From a virus (taxonomy: Duplodnaviria; Heunggongvirae; Uroviricota; Caudoviricetes), in the IMG/VR virus record IMGVR_UViG_3300028992_000037: DNA of 5,858 nt. One strand, 5' to 3'. Shown here piece after piece: positions 1-5,858 of this stretch. Positions within the stretch are counted from its first letter, which is position 1, and every line of letters starts with the position of its first letter. The notes below the pieces were generated by a model. That model worked only from the letters and a program-made list of their open reading frames with translations. It did not search any database and was not told where the DNA came from. Position numbers and translations under genes: made by a program.

Positions 1-27
1 ATGCCCCTTACTGCTGCCTTTACCCAT
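1..27 (-). CDS. J: 5' end of tail tip attachment / central tail fibre protein J (partial, continues beyond the window start)
   Basis: The minus strand from 27 down to 1 reads ATG GGT AAA GGC AGC AGT AAG GGG CAT, i.e. MGKGSSKGH, which matches the N-terminus of lambda gpJ as I recall it. A GGAG Shine-Dalgarno lies 8 nt upstream (36..39). The 60-nt gap after the I stop reproduces the lambda I-J spacing as I recall it. Only 9 codons are visible, so the call rests on sequence identity and synteny. Confidence 0.6.
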
Positions 28-87: not shown

Positions 88-729
88 TCAGCGACCAATC
101 ACCACAACCTGACCACCATCACCTTCATCTGCTGTGCTGATCTCCTGAGATACCACCCGCGACCCCACACGCATTTCACCGTACAGAACGGGCAGGACAT
201 TGCCCTGGGCAACCATATTATCCAGTGAAGAAAAATAGGTGTTCTGTTTGCCGTTATCCGTTGTCTGTGTGCGGGGGGTTTTGGGTTTAGGGGCCAGCAT
301 CTGTGCAACACCGCCAAGCGTCATACTGGCACCGAGAGAAAACAGCAGATTACTCGCCATAATTCCTACCCCCGGCATCCATATAGCAACCGCCATAACA
401 GCCGCCCCCAGCACAGCCTGAAACACACCGCCACTTTTGGCTCCCGCCAGACGCGGCACGATATGGATCACAGCACCATTTGCCAGCGGTTCATTAAGAC
501 GGGCTGATAATTCCGTTTCACCTGTATCACGCCCGGCAATGCGTACCTGATACCAGCCGTCGCTCAGCTTCTGACGAAACGCCGGGATCTGCATGGCCAG
601 CGCCCGGATGGCTTCGGCCCCCGTTTTCACACGCAGATCGATGCGGCGGCCAAATCGTTGTAAATCCCCGTAAAGGCAGATGCGCGCCATGCCCGGTGAC
701 GCCAGAGGGAGTGTGTGCGTCGCTGCCAT
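88..729 (-). CDS. I: Tail assembly protein I (lambda gpI-like)
   Basis: 213-aa ORF starting MAATHTLPLASPGMARICLYGDLQRFGRRIDLRVKTG, which matches the lambda gpI N-terminus as I recall it. It overlaps the 3' end of K by 103 nt in another frame, the same overlap I recall for lambda K/I. It sits between K and J, has high GC, and includes a hydrophobic glycine/alanine-rich central segment. Confidence 0.9.
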   Translation of the reverse strand: MAATHTLPLASPGMARICLYGDLQRFGRRIDLRVKTGAEAIRALAMQIPAFRQKLSDGWYQVRIAGRDTGETELSARLNEPLANGAVIHIVPRLAGAKSGGVFQAVLGAAVMAVAIWMPGVGIMASNLLFSLGASMTLGGVAQMLAPKPKTPRTQTTDNGKQNTYFSSLDNMVAQGNVLPVLYGEMRVGSRVVSQEISTADEGDGGQVVVIGR

Positions 730-1370
730 TTGTCGGTATACCTCTCTCGTTTGCTCAGTTGTTCAGGAATATGGTGCAGCAGCTCGCCGTCACCACAGTA
801 AATGGCGGCATGATTCGGCACCGATGAACCAAAGCAGCACAGCAGCACATCGCCCGGTTGTGCTGATGACAACGGCACCTGATACAGCCCTGTGGCCTCC
901 AGATTATCCAGATAGAGATTCTGACCGTGACGCCACCAGTCATCCCCGCGATGAAAATCCGGCATCTCAATTCCCGCCAGATGGTAAGCGTCCCGGAACA
1001 GCGTGTAACAGTCCGTCACCCCGTGCTCAAAGCGCCGCCCGGTGAGATGCGGCACACAGCGGAATTTATGAATCGCCCCCCGGCAGACCAGCCACCACGG
1101 CAAATCACTCTGCACCTGCAGCCGCCGGTCGGCCTCACTCAGCCAGGGCAGACCACCGGGGTGGCTGTGGACCAGCGCCACAATCTCTCCCTGCATTTCT
1201 GCACTCAGCCAGTCCTCCGGCGACATCCGGAAATACGCCTCCGGCTCACCGGAGATATTCACGCAGGGAAAATATCTTTCCTCCTCCGGCGTTCTCACCA
1301 CGAAGCCGCACGACTCCGCTGGCGCACATCGCCGGGCGTGCGCCAGAATCGCTGATTCTGTCTCTGTCAT
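627..1370 (-). CDS. K: Tail tip assembly protein K (lambda gpK-like; N-terminal MPN/JAMM-type domain plus C-terminal NlpC/P60-type domain)
   Basis: 247-aa ORF beginning 5 nt after the L stop. It contains an exact JAMM motif, HSHPGGLPWLSEAD (H-x-H-x7-S-x2-D, aa 68-81), with an upstream Glu at aa 19. The C-terminal half has a Cys/His arrangement typical of NlpC/P60 (DCYTLF ... NHAAIY ... LLHHI). An alternative internal start at Met49 (1224..1226) is preceded by GGAGG and would correspond to the classical 199-aa lambda K. Confidence 0.88.
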   Translation of the reverse strand: MTETESAILAHARRCAPAESCGFVVRTPEEERYFPCVNISGEPEAYFRMSPEDWLSAEMQGEIVALVHSHPGGLPWLSEADRRLQVQSDLPWWLVCRGAIHKFRCVPHLTGRRFEHGVTDCYTLFRDAYHLAGIEMPDFHRGDDWWRHGQNLYLDNLEATGLYQVPLSSAQPGDVLLCCFGSSVPNHAAIYCGDGELLHHIPEQLSKRERYTDKWQRRTHSLWRHRAWRASAFTGIYNDLAAASICV

Positions 1371-1375
1371 GGGAT

Positions 1376-2074
1376 TTACTGCGAAAGTTTGTTAATGGAA
1401 AGGAAGCTGCCAAAGTTGCCGACATTATTGCGAAACTTACAGCCACTCAGGCATTTGCTGCATTTATCCTTCGTGATATCGGACGTCGGCTGGTCATATT
1501 CATCCGCGACCGCCGGACCGCTATAACCGCACTCATCGCCGCGATAGGTCCAGGTGCAGGTGTTGGCCAGCATGATACGTCCCGGAAAAACAGCGCCATC
1601 CGTTTCCGTCGGCGTGGACAGTACAAAAGAGGCACTGACCGCGCTCAGTTCGCTGCACTGCTCGATGCGCCAGCGGCTGATCACCTCCTGCTCCGGATCG
1701 GCTTCGCTGTTTCCGTTGACGAAGTTCACCGCATCCAGAAAGCGGGCGTAAACCTTACGCCGGACCACCGTTCCGCCGACCAGACTCTGCAGATCTTCCG
1801 CCATCCCGGTGATCATGCCGTGCAGGTTAGAGACCGTCAGTGTCGGACGGGCAGCACTGCCCTTGCCGTTCATCTCAAATCCACTCCCCTGAATGGGATA
1901 GGCCTGATACTGCCGACTCTGCCAGGTGACAGACTCACCTTTTTCGTTCTGCTCATTACAGAAAAAGTAGCGATCCCCGCCTACCTCGGTCAGGTCGATT
2001 TCCCAGAGCACCACGCTGGCCGACTGCTCCGCACGAATGCATTCATTCAGCGTTTCCTGTTGTATGTCCTGCAT
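1376..2074 (-). CDS. L: Minor tail protein L (lambda gpL-like, tail tip complex; cysteine cluster consistent with an Fe-S site)
   Basis: 232-aa ORF starting [12 protein letters not shown]...SASVVLWEIDLTEVGG, closely matching lambda gpL as I recall it, and the same length as lambda L (699 nt). Its ATG overlaps the M stop as ATGA (2072..2076). There is a C-terminal cysteine cluster (C173, C182, C205, C208, C212). Confidence 0.92.
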   Translation of the reverse strand: MQDIQQETLNECIRAEQSASVVLWEIDLTEVGGDRYFFCNEQNEKGESVTWQSRQYQAYPIQGSGFEMNGKGSAARPTLTVSNLHGMITGMAEDLQSLVGGTVVRRKVYARFLDAVNFVNGNSEADPEQEVISRWRIEQCSELSAVSASFVLSTPTETDGAVFPGRIMLANTCTWTYRGDECGYSGPAVADEYDQPTSDITKDKCSKCLSGCKFRNNVGNFGSFLSINKLSQ

Positions 2075-2412
2075 CAGATCACCACTTCGTCAAACTGACA
2101 CGAAAAATCGGTATAGGTGATATGTTCTGTCGCTGACCACGTTCGACACACCACTCTGATTTTTCTGTTAATACCCGGCGGGCGCCAAAAAAAAGATTTA
2201 TAGCCTTCATGCCGGGCTAAAAATTTTTCAAATGAATCACGTTCATTCGCCTCAACTTTGAAATCACAGGTGAAAACGCGCAGAGAATGATTAAGTCCAT
2301 TTGGACTTCGTTGCTCATAACCATCGCCAAATCTTACAGTTTTTATCGATGGTTTATTTTCTGTTTTCATTCCATCCTCTGGTAACCAGTGAAATTCTTC
2401 CGTATTAGCCAC
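2074..2412 (-). CDS. M: Minor tail protein M (gpM family, divergent from lambda gpM)
   Basis: 112-aa ORF with a GTG start that overlaps the H stop by 8 nt. The N-terminus ([28 protein letters not shown]) aligns with the lambda gpM N-terminal region (F-R-W...GM...VRFGDGY) as I recall it, and the C-terminus ends ...FDEVVI versus lambda ...FEQVVN. An alternative ATG start at 2368..2370 is preceded by GAGGA. GC content is markedly lower than in L, K and I. Confidence 0.8.
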
Positions 2413-5400
2413 TTAACATTCCCCCATCACGTCGCATATTTAACAGATTGCCCTGCACCCGCTGATCAACCATCCCCATAAGTGCTTTTATTGCCTGAGG
2501 GCCAATCTCTCCATTCTGGCCGTCATTTTGAATAGTGATTTGGTATACAGGGGCATAGGTAATATCTCCGCCTCCATTACCACTTTTACTATTAATAGCT
2601 CTGACACCAAGAGAACCATCGGAAGTTCGTGTTAATGGCATAATGGCTTCCGGACCAGCTTCACCAAAAACACCAGCCCCTCTTGCAAAAGCAAAAAATT
2701 GCGGGGAATCATAAATACCGTTCGAATACGTGTTCAATGACGGAGACTCATAAACACCGCCCTTTGCATTCGGAATAAATTTACTAATAGCACTCCCGAT
2801 AGTTCCTAAAATCCCCCCAGAAGAACTGTTACTAATGCTGTCGAAAATCCCAGTAATTGAAGCCTTTAATGCTATTCGACTAAGATCCGAAATCACGGAA
2901 GTAGCGAAAGAACGAAAATTTGCCTTGCCTGTCGTGACAAAATCACCCAACGCATCGGTCATTCCATCAAACATCTGAGTCGTGGTTGATTTTATCTGCT
3001 CACTGATATCCTTAGTGTCATCCAGCCAGTTATTGAATCCCTGGGAGGCACCACTAACCCAGTCTCCTGCCTGAATATCGAGCTGCTCGTTTTTCTGTCT
3101 GACAATTTCTTTTTCTCGTTCCAGAGCATCATTCAGAGCCTGCATTTTCTCCTGAAAAACATGATTTGACATCCCACGGGATTTATCTGCATAGTCACGT
3201 TCAAGTTGCAGACGCTGATTGTTATATTCACGTTCAATCCGCAGTAATTCCTGCTGGCGTTGCTGATTTTTATCGCCAACCCCATAACCAGCAATCTGAA
3301 TATCATACCCCTGTTGACGATTATCAATCGAAGCCTGCAATGAATCACGCCATGCAGCTATTTCGGCGGATTCCTTGATTAGCCTGTTATTTTTTTCAAT
3401 CGCAACATTTTTCTCCATCAACGCGGTTATTTCTTCCCGGTGTAAGAGAAGCGATTTCTGATCCTGGGTTAATTTCGATGACGGTCGTGACTCCAGGTCG
3501 GCAATCTGCTGACGCCACTTAACCAGTTCCTGTTCAGAGGAACTTAATTTAACGGTTAATTCAGTTTGTGAACTTAGTAACGCATTCTGTTGATTCAGAT
3601 GATCAATCATTCGTTGGGCAGCATCATCCGAATAACCTTTCGCCTTTGGTTGCTTTGGATCTTTATAACGCTCATTTATTTGAGCGATAAAATTATTATA
3701 TTCTTCCTTTGAATACTGACTCTTTAGCTTTTCCAGTTTTGCAAGTTCACTAGCTCTCTGCTGCTCCCGGGTCTGATATTGTTTTGAAAAGGCATCTGCT
3801 CTCTGTCTGAGTTCAATTCCTTCCTGTTGTCGCTTGTTGTAATCGTTTATTGATGAATTTAGGACGTCCTGAGCAATTTTTTCTGCTTGAAGTACGCCCA
3901 ATTGCTGCTTTAATCGTGCCAGCCTTTTATTTTGAGCTCCGCCATCTCCAATGCCACCTAACCCGAAAACTCCGGGTCGGGTATTTTTTTCTATTTCATC
4001 AATTTGACGGAGAACATCTGAGATTTTTTGATCAAGGGAGGCCTCACGGCCAATATCCAGCATGGAATCCCATGCCCATTTTGCGGAGTCTGCGACAGCT
4101 TTCCATGCAGTCTCAAGATAACCAAGATTTTCTTTAATCTGGTTGGTGCGCTGGATCATTGAGGATGAGTATGCTTCTGTCGCAATGCGGGCGGCCTCCT
4201 GCTGGTTCCCTTCATCCTGTAGCGCCTTAATCTGGTTATAAGTCGCAATTGTCAGAAAATGGTACTGATCATTAAGTTTTGATATGGCACTGACAGGATC
4301 CTTTGCAATTTCATTGAAGTCATTAACCAGTTGTTCGGTTGATATTCCTGTTACTTCGCTCGTTTTTACTATCGCTGTCGTCACTTGCTCCAGCGAACTG
4401 CTCGCTACCTTTCCCGAACGCACAAGCTGGTTTAATACTGCCGCCGCAGCGCCAGTTGTCGAATCAGCCGCATTCCCGGCACGTTGAGCTATATCGGCCA
4501 ATTGCCCGCTGGTTGTCCCCAACTGATTTCCGGTAAGAATAAGAGATTTATTAAATTCGTCCTGCTCCTGAGAGCCTTTATAGTAAGCCAGCCCTAAGAC
4601 GCCAACGGCTGCTGCGGCCAGGGTAAAAGGATTAATTAATCCCAGCACATAAGAACCAACACCTTTGATCGCCGGGCCAATCCCACCGAACATATCTTTT
4701 AGCTGGCCGCCCTGCTGCATTAACACCATAAAAGGCGACTGACCAGTGGACAACCCAACAACAATATCCGTCATTTGTGCAGGCAACATGCGCATAGCAA
4801 AAGCCGTTTGTTTTGCCGACATTCCGGTTTTGCTTAATTGAGATTGAGTAACCTCAAGCTCACTCCGCATAGCACGAAGTTTTCCAGAAAGTTCCTCATA
4901 CATTTCAGGAGAGAGCATCCCCTTAGCTTTTGCTTCATTGAGCTGTTTCTGTTGTTCTACCAGACGATTAAAAGCAGTTCCGACAGGGTCAAGTTGAGCA
5001 ATCAGACGTTGCAAAGCAGCAACCTGTTCATCATGCGCTTTTGCTGCTTCTCGCTCTGCCTGAGCCTCTCCGGTAAGCTCTCGCCGTGTTTCCTGTATTT
5101 TTCGGCTATAATTCTCAAACTGAGAACCATTTATTTTCCCGGATGCAAACGCAGCATTAAGTTCATCCTGCTGTTGTTCAAGATTTCTTAGCGCCGCAAC
5201 CAGAGGGTCGATCTTGTCCAGCATTCTTTGAAAGGCCTGAGCCTGCGATTCCTGCTGGGCGGCAGCAAGTTTTCCGGCCTTCTCGGCTTCTCTCTGCGCT
5301 TGCGCAACCCCGCTCAATTCCTCTGTGGTTTCATTAAGTTTACGGACAAGAAATTCATATTCTTCTTTATCAATAAGTCCTTTATCGAAAAATTTCTTTA

Positions 5401-5638
5401 ATTCAGAATAGCGTCGACCGACAGTATCAATTGCGGCACCAACTGGATCAATAGCTGCTTTTAATTTTGCGAGCGCGTTCTTCTCATCTTCTGTTGCCTT
5501 AGTCACTTTCCCTGCGCTATTTGCAGCAGTTTCCCCGGCCTGCGTCATTTTGACTAATGAGGAGGTCAGATTGTCAGCATTATTTTTTGCTCCAGTGCTA
5601 TCAATAATTATTGCGAGACGCGAGGTTTGCTCTGCCAT
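2405..5638 (-). CDS. H: Tail tape measure protein (lambda gpH family, extended to 1077 aa)
   Basis: Single 3234-nt ORF with a GGAG Shine-Dalgarno at 5648..5651, 9 nt before the ATG. It has three N-terminal repeats of about 48 aa (aa 63-110, 143-190, 216-263). A conserved hydrophobic block ([38 protein letters not shown]...[15 protein letters not shown], aa ~283-354) matches the corresponding lambda gpH segment as I recall it. A long central region is Q/E/K/R-rich and coiled-coil-like. The C-terminus (...[16 protein letters not shown]...[10 protein letters not shown]) resembles the lambda gpH C-terminus as I recall it. It sits immediately upstream of M-L-K-I-J. Confidence 0.92.
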
Positions 5639-5798
5639 TTATTAAAACTCCAGACAACAAAAAGCCCACCGAAGTGGGTTTCAGGCGACATAATAGTAGA
5701 TATAGCGATTACGAGGCCACGCAATGCTTTTCTCCAGGAGCATCATCGATTTAATTAAAGACACCTGAAGTGGTTTACTGAATTTGGCCACCTGAACA

Positions 5799-5817
5799 GA
5801 GGTGATATGCTCACCTC
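5799..5817. promoter_or_regulatory. 7-bp perfect inverted repeat (GAGGTGA / TCACCTC) with a 5-nt spacer; candidate operator or protein-binding site upstream of a plus-strand gene start
   Basis: Seen directly: GAGGTGA at 5799..5805 and TCACCTC at 5811..5817 are reverse complements. Further CACCTG/CAGGTG copies lie nearby (5762..5767, 5789..5794, 5827..5832). The repeat is 20 nt upstream of the ATG at 5838. Confidence 0.3.
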
Positions 5818-5837
5818 AGAACAACACAGGTGCCATA

Positions 5838-5858
5838 ATGAAAAAAAGAAATTTCAGC
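5838..5858 (+). CDS. Possible 5' end of a plus-strand gene of unknown function (MKKRNFS..., continues beyond the window end), divergent from the tail operon
   Basis: ATG AAA AAA AGA AAT TTC AGC runs to the window end with no stop. An AGGTG Shine-Dalgarno-like motif lies 5 nt upstream (5828..5832). The Lys/Arg-rich N-terminus is typical of a signal peptide or membrane-protein start. Only 7 codons are visible, so this is tentative. Confidence 0.25.

What the first reader, a model, noticed from the sequence alone, without database searches (positions are those of the whole stretch)
2074..5638. Mosaic tail module: low-GC H and M joined to lambda-like high-GC L-K-I-J at the M/L overlap
Sampled 60-nt blocks inside H and M give roughly 27-52% GC (mostly about 40-45%). 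Blocks inside L, K and I give roughly 53-70%. The change coincides with the ATGA overlap of M and L (2072..2076). At protein level, L, K, I and the J start track lambda closely as I recall them, whereas M is only moderately similar to lambda gpM and H differs greatly in length and sequence outside its hydrophobic block and C-terminus. This suggests the tape measure and M were acquired from a different, lower-GC lineage. Since gpM, gpL and the gpH C-terminus interact during tail-tip initiation, a breakpoint exactly here raises the question of which contacts are preserved.
Basis: partly seen in the sequence, partly recalled or inferred. Interest (0 to 1): 0.55.

Follow-up and report, generated by a model that had tools for sequence, protein, structure and literature searches.

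The report
Rac-type tail shaft, lambda-type tail tip
The sharp GC change is a real recombination joint in an E. coli prophage, where a lower-GC Rac-type tape-measure and M gene meet the high-GC lambda-type tail-tip genes L-K-I-J; it is an ordinary, widespread example of the gene shuffling long known in lambda-like phages.

Summary
All genes lie on the minus strand. H (2405-5638) and M (2074-2412) have 45% and 41% GC (GC3 0.39 and 0.35). L, K and I have 56-60% GC (GC3 0.56-0.68). The maximum-likelihood change-point is window 2036, with support 2020-2093. DNA similarity to lambda starts at window 2096, 22 nt before the M stop. Identity to lambda is L 94%, K 96% and I 80-85%, against M 40-42% and H 28-30%.

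In complete relatives the whole virion region from terminase to M is 45-50% GC and Rac-type; K-12 Rac ynaA is the 5' end of this H. L to the N-terminal two-thirds of J forms a roughly 5 kb island of 55-61% GC. Metagenome relatives carry a similar H-M with a low-GC L and show no step.

At least four unrelated H/M types are joined at this same boundary to L-K-I of 89-97% nucleotide identity. This M occurs in 721 of 5,426 complete E. coli genomes and is joined to lambda-type L in 716.

This is known lambdoid mosaicism, so interest is low. An IS3-family element abuts the window end.

The parts
2405..5638 (-). H, tail tape measure protein, 1,077 aa, Rac type, 45% GC and GC3 0.39
   Evidence: ORF. 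Pfam TMP_2 (267-471), TMP_4 (671-748) and Tape_meas_lam_C (858-932). It is 28-30% identical to lambda gpH. Its first 1 kb or so is 98.4% identical in DNA to K-12 Rac ynaA. The C-terminal motif NDGxNGxIGPxAxK...RDGGxxSG is shared with all H types compared.
2074..2412 (-). M, distal tail protein (Dit-like ring), 112 aa with a GTG start, Rac type, 41% GC and GC3 0.35
   Evidence: Pfam Phage_min_tail, E = 1e-31. Matches lambda gpM chains 8IYK, 8IYL, 8K35, 8XCG and 9E7M at E = 2e-25. It is 40-42% identical to lambda gpM. The next best phage M types reach at most 50%.
2072..2097 (-). Mosaic joint: the last 22 nt of M plus the TGATG stop/start. DNA similarity to lambda-type phages begins at window 2096.
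   Evidence: Alignment with lambda. BLASTN left edges fall at rc 3744-3782 for lambda, PhiR49_1, PhiR49_2, mEp460 and PhiR55_1. In E. coli genomes nearly all partial matches in the sampled listing start at this same base. The GC change-point support interval is 2020-2093.
1376..2074 (-). L, tail hub protein, 232 aa, lambda type, 56% GC and GC3 0.68
   Evidence: Pfam Phage_tail_L, E = 7e-98. It is 94% identical to lambda gpL and 99% to PhiR49_1 L.
627..1370 (-). K, tail assembly protein with JAB/MPN and NlpC/P60 domains, 247 aa, lambda type, 60% GC
   Evidence: Pfam Prok-JAB and NLPC_P60. It is 96% identical to lambda gpK over lambda's annotated 199 aa.
88..729 (-). I, tail tip plug protein, 213 aa, overlapping K by 103 nt as in lambda, 57% GC
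   Evidence: Pfam Lambda_tail_I. It is 80-85% identical to lambda gpI and 98-99% to PhiR49_1 I.
1..27 (-). First 9 codons of J (MGKGSSKGH), preceded at 42-69 by the lambda I-J intergenic hairpin
   Evidence: The intergenic sequence differs from lambda's at 3 positions.
5766..5858 (+). Left end of an IS3-family element (ISEc52-like). It is not part of the mosaic but interrupts the operon 127 nt upstream of the H start codon. The IS end begins TGAAGTGG at 5766 and the orfA ATG is at 5838.
   Evidence: No relative matches rc 1-93. That stretch is 97-99% identical to ISEc52 ends in many E. coli genomes.

Best explanation
The window is the tail region of a Rac-family E. coli or Shigella prophage whose late operon is a recombinant.

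Genes up to and including M belong to a lower-GC Rac-type virion module: terminase, P22-type capsid, tube, chaperones, tape measure H and the distal ring protein M. From the last 22 nt of M onward the DNA is the high-GC lambda-type tip cassette L-K-I-J, which circulates nearly unchanged among E. coli lambdoid prophages.

The joint was most likely made once for this M type and then inherited (inferred). Afterwards, homologous recombination inside the shared L-K-I-J DNA kept swapping alleles downstream of it (shown by sub-mosaics).

The chimera is expected to be assembly-competent because the boundary matches a physical seam in the lambda tail (inferred). The M hexamer stacks through its E-loops, by electrostatic contacts, on the ring made of three L and three J domains. 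The C-terminal helix of H sits on the I tripod. The sequence segments that plausibly make these contacts are the ones conserved across all H/M types.
For: The composition step is located and significant.

Protein incongruence is strong. Four H/M types (Rac, lambda, PhiR49_2/Stx-like, mEp460) are 27-32% identical in H and 39-55% in M. Their L proteins are 93-94% identical, K 96-99% and I 78-98%. In distant taxa M and L are both about 30-40% identical to the window, so they agree there.

DNA similarity to all lambda-type tips starts within the last 41 nt of M.

Context: the upstream late region is 45-50% GC and L to mid-J is 55-61%. K-12 Rac ynaA is the 5' end of this H at 98.4%.

Non-mosaic relatives L092 and L093 have a low-GC L and no step. 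Their DNA identity to the window drops from roughly 77-88% over most of H-M (two 5'-most windows 67-76%) to 68-72% in L.

Population: this M is in 721 of 5,426 complete genomes and the junction is intact in 716.

Recombination after the founding event: SPF_0923 is 98-100% identical through H-M but 85-86% in the first 300 nt of L. PhiR49_1 is lambda-like through M and the first ~88 nt of L, then essentially identical to the window (one mismatch in the next ~240 nt compared).

Structure of the seam comes from PMC10721106. The conserved H C-terminal motif is shown. In M, 12 of 30 positions are invariant in residues 16-45 against 15 of 67 elsewhere.

De Paepe et al. 2014 (PMC3945230) showed that lambda exchanges DNA with Rac and other defective prophages by homology-driven recombination that tolerates divergence.
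Against: No virion with this arrangement has been isolated. The phage-database records are PHASTER-predicted prophages or regions that include chromosomal genes.

In this window an IS element sits just upstream of H, so this copy may be defective.

The E-loop assignment in M rests on a low-confidence AlphaFold model (pLDDT 65.6, below 50 over residues 16-42) and on analogy to lambda. The enrichment of invariant residues there is modest.

The host and completeness of the low-GC relatives L092 and L093 are unknown, so 'ancestral arrangement' is an inference.

The mechanism of the founding event cannot be told from sequence. It could be short homology in the conserved M 3' end, or illegitimate joining followed by selection.
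Confidence: 0.85

Rival explanations
1. One reading: a lambda-like phage acquired H and M alone from a lower-GC lineage, as a two-gene replacement inside a lambda-like tail operon.
For: H and M are the only low-GC genes visible inside the window. At 41-45% GC they lie at the low end of the backbone range.
Against: In complete relatives every gene upstream of H is also non-lambda and 45-50% GC: chaperones, tube, head and terminase. The high-GC stretch is a bounded island of about 5 kb. K-12 Rac keeps the H 5' end next to ydaY and ynaK. Citrobacter and metagenome relatives keep the same tube-YdaY-H-M arrangement.
Confidence: 0.07
2. No transfer occurred. L, K and I are simply far more constrained proteins than H and M, so they look lambda-like while H and M diverged in place.
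For: L-K-I are conserved hub and assembly proteins. Tape measures are known to evolve fast (general knowledge).
Against: The step is in synonymous sites: GC3 0.38 against 0.64, and CTG 24% against 72% of Leu codons. L DNA is 89-97% identical to other phages, while M shows no detectable DNA similarity beyond its last ~22 nt (lambda type) to ~41 nt (PhiR49_2). Low-GC L alleles exist next to related H-M.
Confidence: 0.02
3. The M/L boundary is an active recombination hot spot. A specific sequence or site-directed mechanism would repeatedly create new joints there, rather than the boundary being the inherited edge of shared homology.
For: At least four M types end at the same boundary. In the sampled listing of an 8,500-place search, almost all partial matches begin at one base, consistent with thousands of E. 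coli prophage alignments starting there. A conserved run, TTTGAnnAnGTGGTGAnCTGATGCAGGA, spans the joint in three of the types.
Against: The joint designs differ. Some types have the TGATG overlap, while mEp460 and PhiR55_1 have a 9-nt spacer with its own ribosome-binding site. There is no Chi site in the window. The conserved run encodes the conserved M C-terminus (F-D/E-E/Q-V-V) and the L N-terminus, so protein constraint explains it. A common alignment start is expected wherever shared homology ends. De Paepe et al. found no hot spot among lambda-Rac recombinants.
Confidence: 0.06

Closest known systems
Phage lambda tail-tip genes M-L-K-I-J (NC_001416; structures 8IYK, 8IYL, 8K35)
   Same: Gene order is the same, as are the TGATG M/L stop-start, the 103-nt K/I overlap, the I-J intergenic hairpin and the J start MGKGSSKGH. 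L is 94% identical, K 96% and I 80-85%, with about 89% DNA identity from window 2096 to the window start.
   Different: M is only 40-42% identical and H only 28-30%. H is 224 aa longer and has three loose repeats of about 75 aa at its N-terminus. GC3 of H and M is 0.35-0.39 here against 0.65-0.66 in lambda.
Rac cryptic prophage of E. coli K-12 (ydaY, ynaA/tmpR, lomR)
   Same: K-12 ynaA and its upstream region are 98.4% identical to window rc 94-1155, the 5' end of H. Intact relatives carry Rac's trkG-ynaK-ydaY upstream of the same H.
   Different: K-12 Rac has lost all head genes and everything from H codon ~311 to lom, including M, L, K, I and J. The window holds the intact genes. Related prophages also sit at the Qin (ydfJ) locus, so the shared unit is the virion module, not necessarily the whole Rac prophage.
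Other lambdoid prophages and phages with lambda-type tips on different shafts (PhiR49_1, PhiR49_2, mEp460, cdtI, PhiR55_1)
   Same: All have an L-K-I cassette 89-97% identical in DNA to the window, with the similarity ending at the M/L boundary.
   Different: Their H/M types are different: lambda type, Stx-like type and mEp460 type. Their H/M GC of 50-59% is closer to the tip, so the step is less visible. Stx2a_F349 itself shares only 73-78% DNA identity in L-K-I, with L 77% at protein level.
Pervasive mosaicism of lambdoid phages; homology-driven exchange with defective prophages (De Paepe et al. 2014, PMC3945230; Juhala et al. 2000, the latter from my own knowledge)
   Same: Sharp transitions at or near gene boundaries, and shared segments of more than 90% identity between otherwise unrelated temperate phages and prophages.
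   Different: Nothing differs in kind. This is one specific, very common instance.

Membership tests
Lambda-type tail tip module (M-L-K-I-J) | Each gene matches its family: Phage_min_tail, Phage_tail_L, JAB plus NlpC/P60, Lambda_tail_I | tested here: met
   Pfam E-values of 1e-31, 7e-98, 4e-14 and 2e-12, and 7e-24 respectively.
Lambda-type tail tip module (M-L-K-I-J) | Lambda gene order and coupling: H/M overlap, M/L stop-start, K/I overlap, I-J hairpin | tested here: met
   ORF coordinates and junction alignments.
Lambda-type tail tip module (M-L-K-I-J) | Close sequence relationship to lambda across the whole module | tested here: not met
   It is met for L, K and I at 80-96% identity. It is not met for M at 40-42% or for H at 28-30%. 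Those two are homologues, but of another lineage.
Rac-type virion module | Tape measure gene collinear with and near-identical to K-12 Rac ynaA | tested here: met
   98.4% identity over 1,064 nt.
Rac-type virion module | Upstream context of trkG-ynaK, head genes, tube protein and ydaY | tested here: inconclusive
   It is present in relatives 99% identical to the window. The window itself ends in an IS element 220 nt upstream of H, so its own context cannot be seen.
Recent homology-driven mosaic (as defined in De Paepe et al. 2014) | Shared segment above 90% identity between genomes that are otherwise dissimilar | tested here: met
   97.4% identity over 2,096 nt with PhiR49_1, whose H/M are lambda-type.
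Recent homology-driven mosaic (as defined in De Paepe et al. 2014) | A 'trace' of lower but above-background identity flanking the mosaic | tested here: inconclusive
   Only the last ~22 nt of M rise above background, and they encode a conserved peptide. Upstream 15-nt blocks match at 3-11 of 15 positions.
Functional tailed phage | Production of infectious particles with this chimeric tail | not testable with these tools
   The database 'phage' records are PHASTER predictions or include chromosomal genes.

The most novel reading that the evidence does not exclude
The M/L seam may be a general plug-in point. The M ring would act as an adaptor whose tube-facing body co-varies with each lineage's tube protein and tape measure. 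Its E-loop segment (GDGYxQR...GLN) and the H C-terminal motif would stay constant, so one L-K-I-J receptor-binding cassette can be mounted on unrelated siphovirus shafts.

The Rac-type lineage would then have replaced a native low-GC tip, as still seen in contigs L092 and L093, with the E. coli cassette, possibly as part of a host shift. If this is right, tip cassettes could be moved deliberately between backbones at this exact joint.
Probability: 0.35. Interest if true: 0.4.

Novelty: already known. Interest (0 to 1): 0.2.

Why it matters
It matters little on its own. It is a clean, quantified example of lambdoid mosaicism in a very common prophage, found in about 13% of complete E. coli genomes.

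Three points are modestly useful:
- It shows what the deleted K-12 Rac tail region looked like when intact.
- It shows that the M/L boundary is the common upstream edge of a tip cassette found in about 4,200 of 5,426 E. coli genomes.
- It points to the physical seam (M E-loops on the L/J ring, H C-terminus on the I tripod) as a natural place for engineered tail-tip swaps.

Tried and rejected
- **GTDB species-representative scan with an M profile.** The only close hit was Shigella flexneri. Many 42% hits in unrelated taxa were lambda DNA on low-coverage contigs, which looks like spike-in contamination, and say nothing about origin.
- **Literature searches.** I looked for the specific phage records and for an explicit description of the M/L joint. 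I found only the PHASTER preprint and general mosaicism papers. I did not find a paper naming this joint.
- **AlphaFold model of M.** Confidence was too low (pLDDT 65.6, N-terminal 45 residues below 50) to map contacts. I used it only to mark the disordered, putative E-loop segment, and I ran no fold search.
- **Chi sites as a hot-spot explanation.** There are none in the window.
- **Promoter and terminator scan.** Counts did not exceed the shuffled expectation.
- **Self-BLAST of H for internal repeats.** It found nothing at E <= 1e-3. The three N-terminal repeats appear only in a manual alignment.
- **Assembly chimera.** Rejected, because 716 complete genomes carry the same joint.
Full report
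**Anatomy.** All genes lie on the minus strand.
- H: 2405-5638, 1,077 aa
- M: 2074-2412, 112 aa, GTG start, 8-nt overlap with H
- L: 1376-2074, 232 aa
- K: 627-1370, 247 aa
- I: 88-729, 213 aa, overlapping K by 103 nt as in lambda
- J: first nine codons at 27-1

Pfam confirms each identity: TMP_2, TMP_4 and Tape_meas_lam_C for H; Phage_min_tail for M; Phage_tail_L for L; Prok-JAB plus NlpC/P60 for K; Lambda_tail_I for I. The M/L junction at 2072-2076 reads TGATG on the coding strand, a stop and a start sharing one base as in lambda.

**Checking the observation.** Exact GC and GC3 values are H 0.450/0.388, M 0.410/0.345, L 0.559/0.678, K 0.595/0.669 and I 0.569/0.561. Pooled GC3 is 0.384 against 0.639, z = 10.7. 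Synonymous codon choice differs strongly: CTG is 24% of Leu codons in H+M and 72% in L+K+I, and ATC is 17% against 50% of Ile codons.

A one-change-point likelihood scan places the step at window 2036, with 2-lnL support 2020-2093. The LLR is 43.3, against a maximum of 7.0 in 200 codon shuffles. The step is nonetheless real and sits at the M/L junction.

Against lambda (locus L001) the proteins are L 94%, K 96%, I 80-85%, M 40-42% and H 28-30% identical. At the DNA level, similarity to lambda starts 22 nt before the M stop, at window 2096. It then runs at 88.7% to the end of the window. Upstream, 15-nt blocks match at only 3-11 of 15 positions.

**What it is.** The window is 99% identical to prophages in hundreds of complete E. 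coli genomes and to ten phage-database records. Nine of those ten are PHASTER-predicted prophages. The tenth, SPF_0923, includes chromosomal genes.

In E. coli 50579417 (locus L002) the region lies in a prophage carrying trkG, ynaK and ydaY. Its virion genes are a terminase, a DUF4055 portal, a P22-family capsid protein, a terminator-like protein and a tail tube protein. These are followed by H-M-L-K-I-J-lom-stf.

K-12's cryptic Rac prophage keeps exactly the 5' 1 kb of this H as ynaA, at 98.4% identity. It has deletions of the head genes and of the rest of H through J. The window therefore shows the intact form of the Rac-type tail region.

**Direction of the mosaic.** Across L002 the late region from terminase to M is 45-50% GC. 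L, K, I and about two-thirds of J are 55-61%. GC falls again in the C-terminal part of J, lom and the fibre genes. The high-GC lambda-like stretch is thus an island of about 5 kb in a lower-GC backbone. That is the reverse of 'H and M were acquired'.

A protein search with M found intermediate relatives. In metagenome contigs L092 and L093, H is 86-88% and M 84% identical to the window. There L has GC 0.44-0.45 and GC3 0.38, and is 77-78% identical to both the window's L and lambda's L. GC does not step at M/L in these contigs. DNA identity to the window falls from roughly 77-88% over most of H-M (the two 5'-most windows are 67-76%) to 68-72% in L. This is what an unrecombined Rac-type tail with its own tip would look like. 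A Citrobacter sedlakii prophage (L091) is intermediate.

**Recurrence of the boundary.** Four H/M types are mutually 27-32% identical in H and 39-55% in M: Rac type, lambda type, the PhiR49_2/Stx-like type and the mEp460/PhiR55_1 type. Their L proteins are 93-94% identical, K 96-99% and I 78-98%. For all of them, BLASTN similarity to the window begins at rc 3744-3782, within the last 41 nt of M or at the L start.

In distant taxa such as Proteus, Xenorhabdus, Pandoraea and Morganella, M and L are both about 30-50% identical to the window, so they agree there.

In the 5,426 complete E. coli genomes:
- The Rac-type part of M occurs in 721 genomes, at 99% identity or more in 674 of them.
- The joint to lambda-type L is intact in 716 genomes.
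- The lambda-type 5' half of L occurs in 4,199 genomes at 8,500 places. In the sampled listing, nearly all partial alignments start at the same base, window 2096.

**Exchange after the founding event.** SPF_0923 is 98-100% identical through H and M, 85-86% in the first 300 nt of L, then 94-98% again. PhiR49_1 has lambda-type H, M and the first ~88 nt of L. From there it is essentially identical to the window's L, with one mismatch in the next ~240 nt compared. That places a crossover inside L, as homologous recombination would produce.

De Paepe et al. 2014 (PMC3945230) showed experimentally that lambda picks up DNA from Rac, Qin and DLP12. The exchange is homology-driven, tolerates divergence and shows no hot spot.

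I therefore read the M/L joint as the inherited edge of shared homology. It was founded once per M type. Joint designs differ between types: a TGATG overlap in some, a 9-nt spacer with its own Shine-Dalgarno sequence in mEp460. There is no Chi site in the window. How each founding joint arose cannot be decided from sequence. The options are short homology in the conserved M 3' end, or illegitimate joining filtered by selection.

**How the chimera can work.** This part is inferred. In the lambda virion structure (PMC10721106), gpM is a hexameric distal-tail ring with the same fold as the tube protein. Its beta-sandwich faces the tube. Its E-loops stack electrostatically on the last ring, which is made of three gpL HDI and three gpJ HDII domains. 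A three-helix coil of the gpH C-terminus (residues 818-842) rests on a tripod formed by the gpI C-terminal domains. The genetic boundary thus matches a physical seam.

All H types compared, including the window's, keep the C-terminal motif NDGxNGxIGPxAxK...RDGGxxSG. The same I allele, 98-99% identical, is found with both lambda-type H (PhiR49_1) and Rac-type H (the window).

Among the four M types that pair with near-identical L, 12 of 30 positions are invariant in residues 16-45 ([10 protein letters not shown]...GLN). Elsewhere 15 of 67 are invariant. Residues 16-45 are also the segment that AlphaFold leaves disordered, as expected for an extended loop. This fits an E-loop that is kept constant for docking on L/J. 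The model is of low confidence and the enrichment is modest.

**Comparison with known systems and novelty.** The genes are ordinary members of their families and are annotated as such in RefSeq. Sharp mosaic joints at gene boundaries in lambdoid phages are textbook (Juhala et al. 2000, from my own knowledge; De Paepe et al. 2014). I found no paper that names this particular joint, but it is not a new kind of thing. Interest is low.

**Other observations.**
- Window 5766-5858 is the end of an IS3-family ISEc52-like element inserted 127 nt upstream of the H start. This copy of the late operon is therefore probably cut off from its promoter.
- A terminator-like hairpin lies just upstream of H at 5656-5681.

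Noticed in passing
window 5766-5858 (+ strand): The left end of an IS3-family element, 97-99% identical to ISEc52. The end sequence is TGAAGTGGTTTACTG and the orfA start MKKRNFS is at 5838. It is inserted 127 nt upstream of the H start codon, between the chaperone genes and H. None of the hundreds of related prophages has it at this site, so this copy of the late operon is probably disrupted.
   Followed up: yes
window 5758-5765; L094 1503-1510; L095 1504-1510: Three independent ISEc52 insertions, in this prophage, in an autotransporter gene and in fliD, share a similar flank A(A/G)GACAC directly abutting the IS end. This suggests a target-site preference.
   Followed up: partly
window 5656-5681 (- strand): A terminator-like hairpin (CCCACTTCGGTGGG followed by a T run) lies 17 nt upstream of the H start codon inside the late operon. 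It is conserved in relatives L002 and L009. In the whole-window scan, terminator-like sites were no more frequent than in shuffled sequence.
   Followed up: partly
window about 4787-5480 (H residues ~53-284): The N-terminal extension of H relative to lambda gpH consists of three loose repeats of about 75 aa, with the motif (I/L)DP(V/L)xxA...(E/Q)L...G...(Y/F)E...K(L/I)...EL. Self-BLAST does not detect them at E <= 1e-3; they appear only in a manual alignment.
   Followed up: partly
window 627-1370 compared with L001 5129-5876: K is a 247-aa ORF here and in most relatives. Lambda's DNA encodes the same N-terminal 48 residues in frame (tblastn coverage 1.00), which are part of the JAB/MPN domain. 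The lambda reference record nevertheless annotates K as only 199 aa.
   Followed up: partly
loci L011-L022: Exact lambda tail sequence turns up on low-coverage contigs of unrelated genome assemblies, including Neobacillus, Oceanobacillus, Shewanella, Pseudomonas, Kitasatospora and Enterococcus. This is most likely lambda DNA contamination in those assemblies.
   Followed up: no
L091 3225-7047 (Citrobacter sedlakii prophage): A cluster of accessory genes (KilA-N, Arc/FitA-like, P22 antirepressor N-domain, ANT) is inserted between the tail chaperone genes and the tape measure gene of a Rac-type tail module. Stx2a_F349 likewise has an antirepressor block inserted between L and K.
   Followed up: no
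L002 33873-37082 compared with L009 32177-33885: Prophages with the same Rac-type virion module sit at different chromosomal loci. In strain 50579417 it is next to ydfJ, the Qin site. In the SPF_0923 record it is next to uspF and ompN, the Rac site.
   Followed up: no
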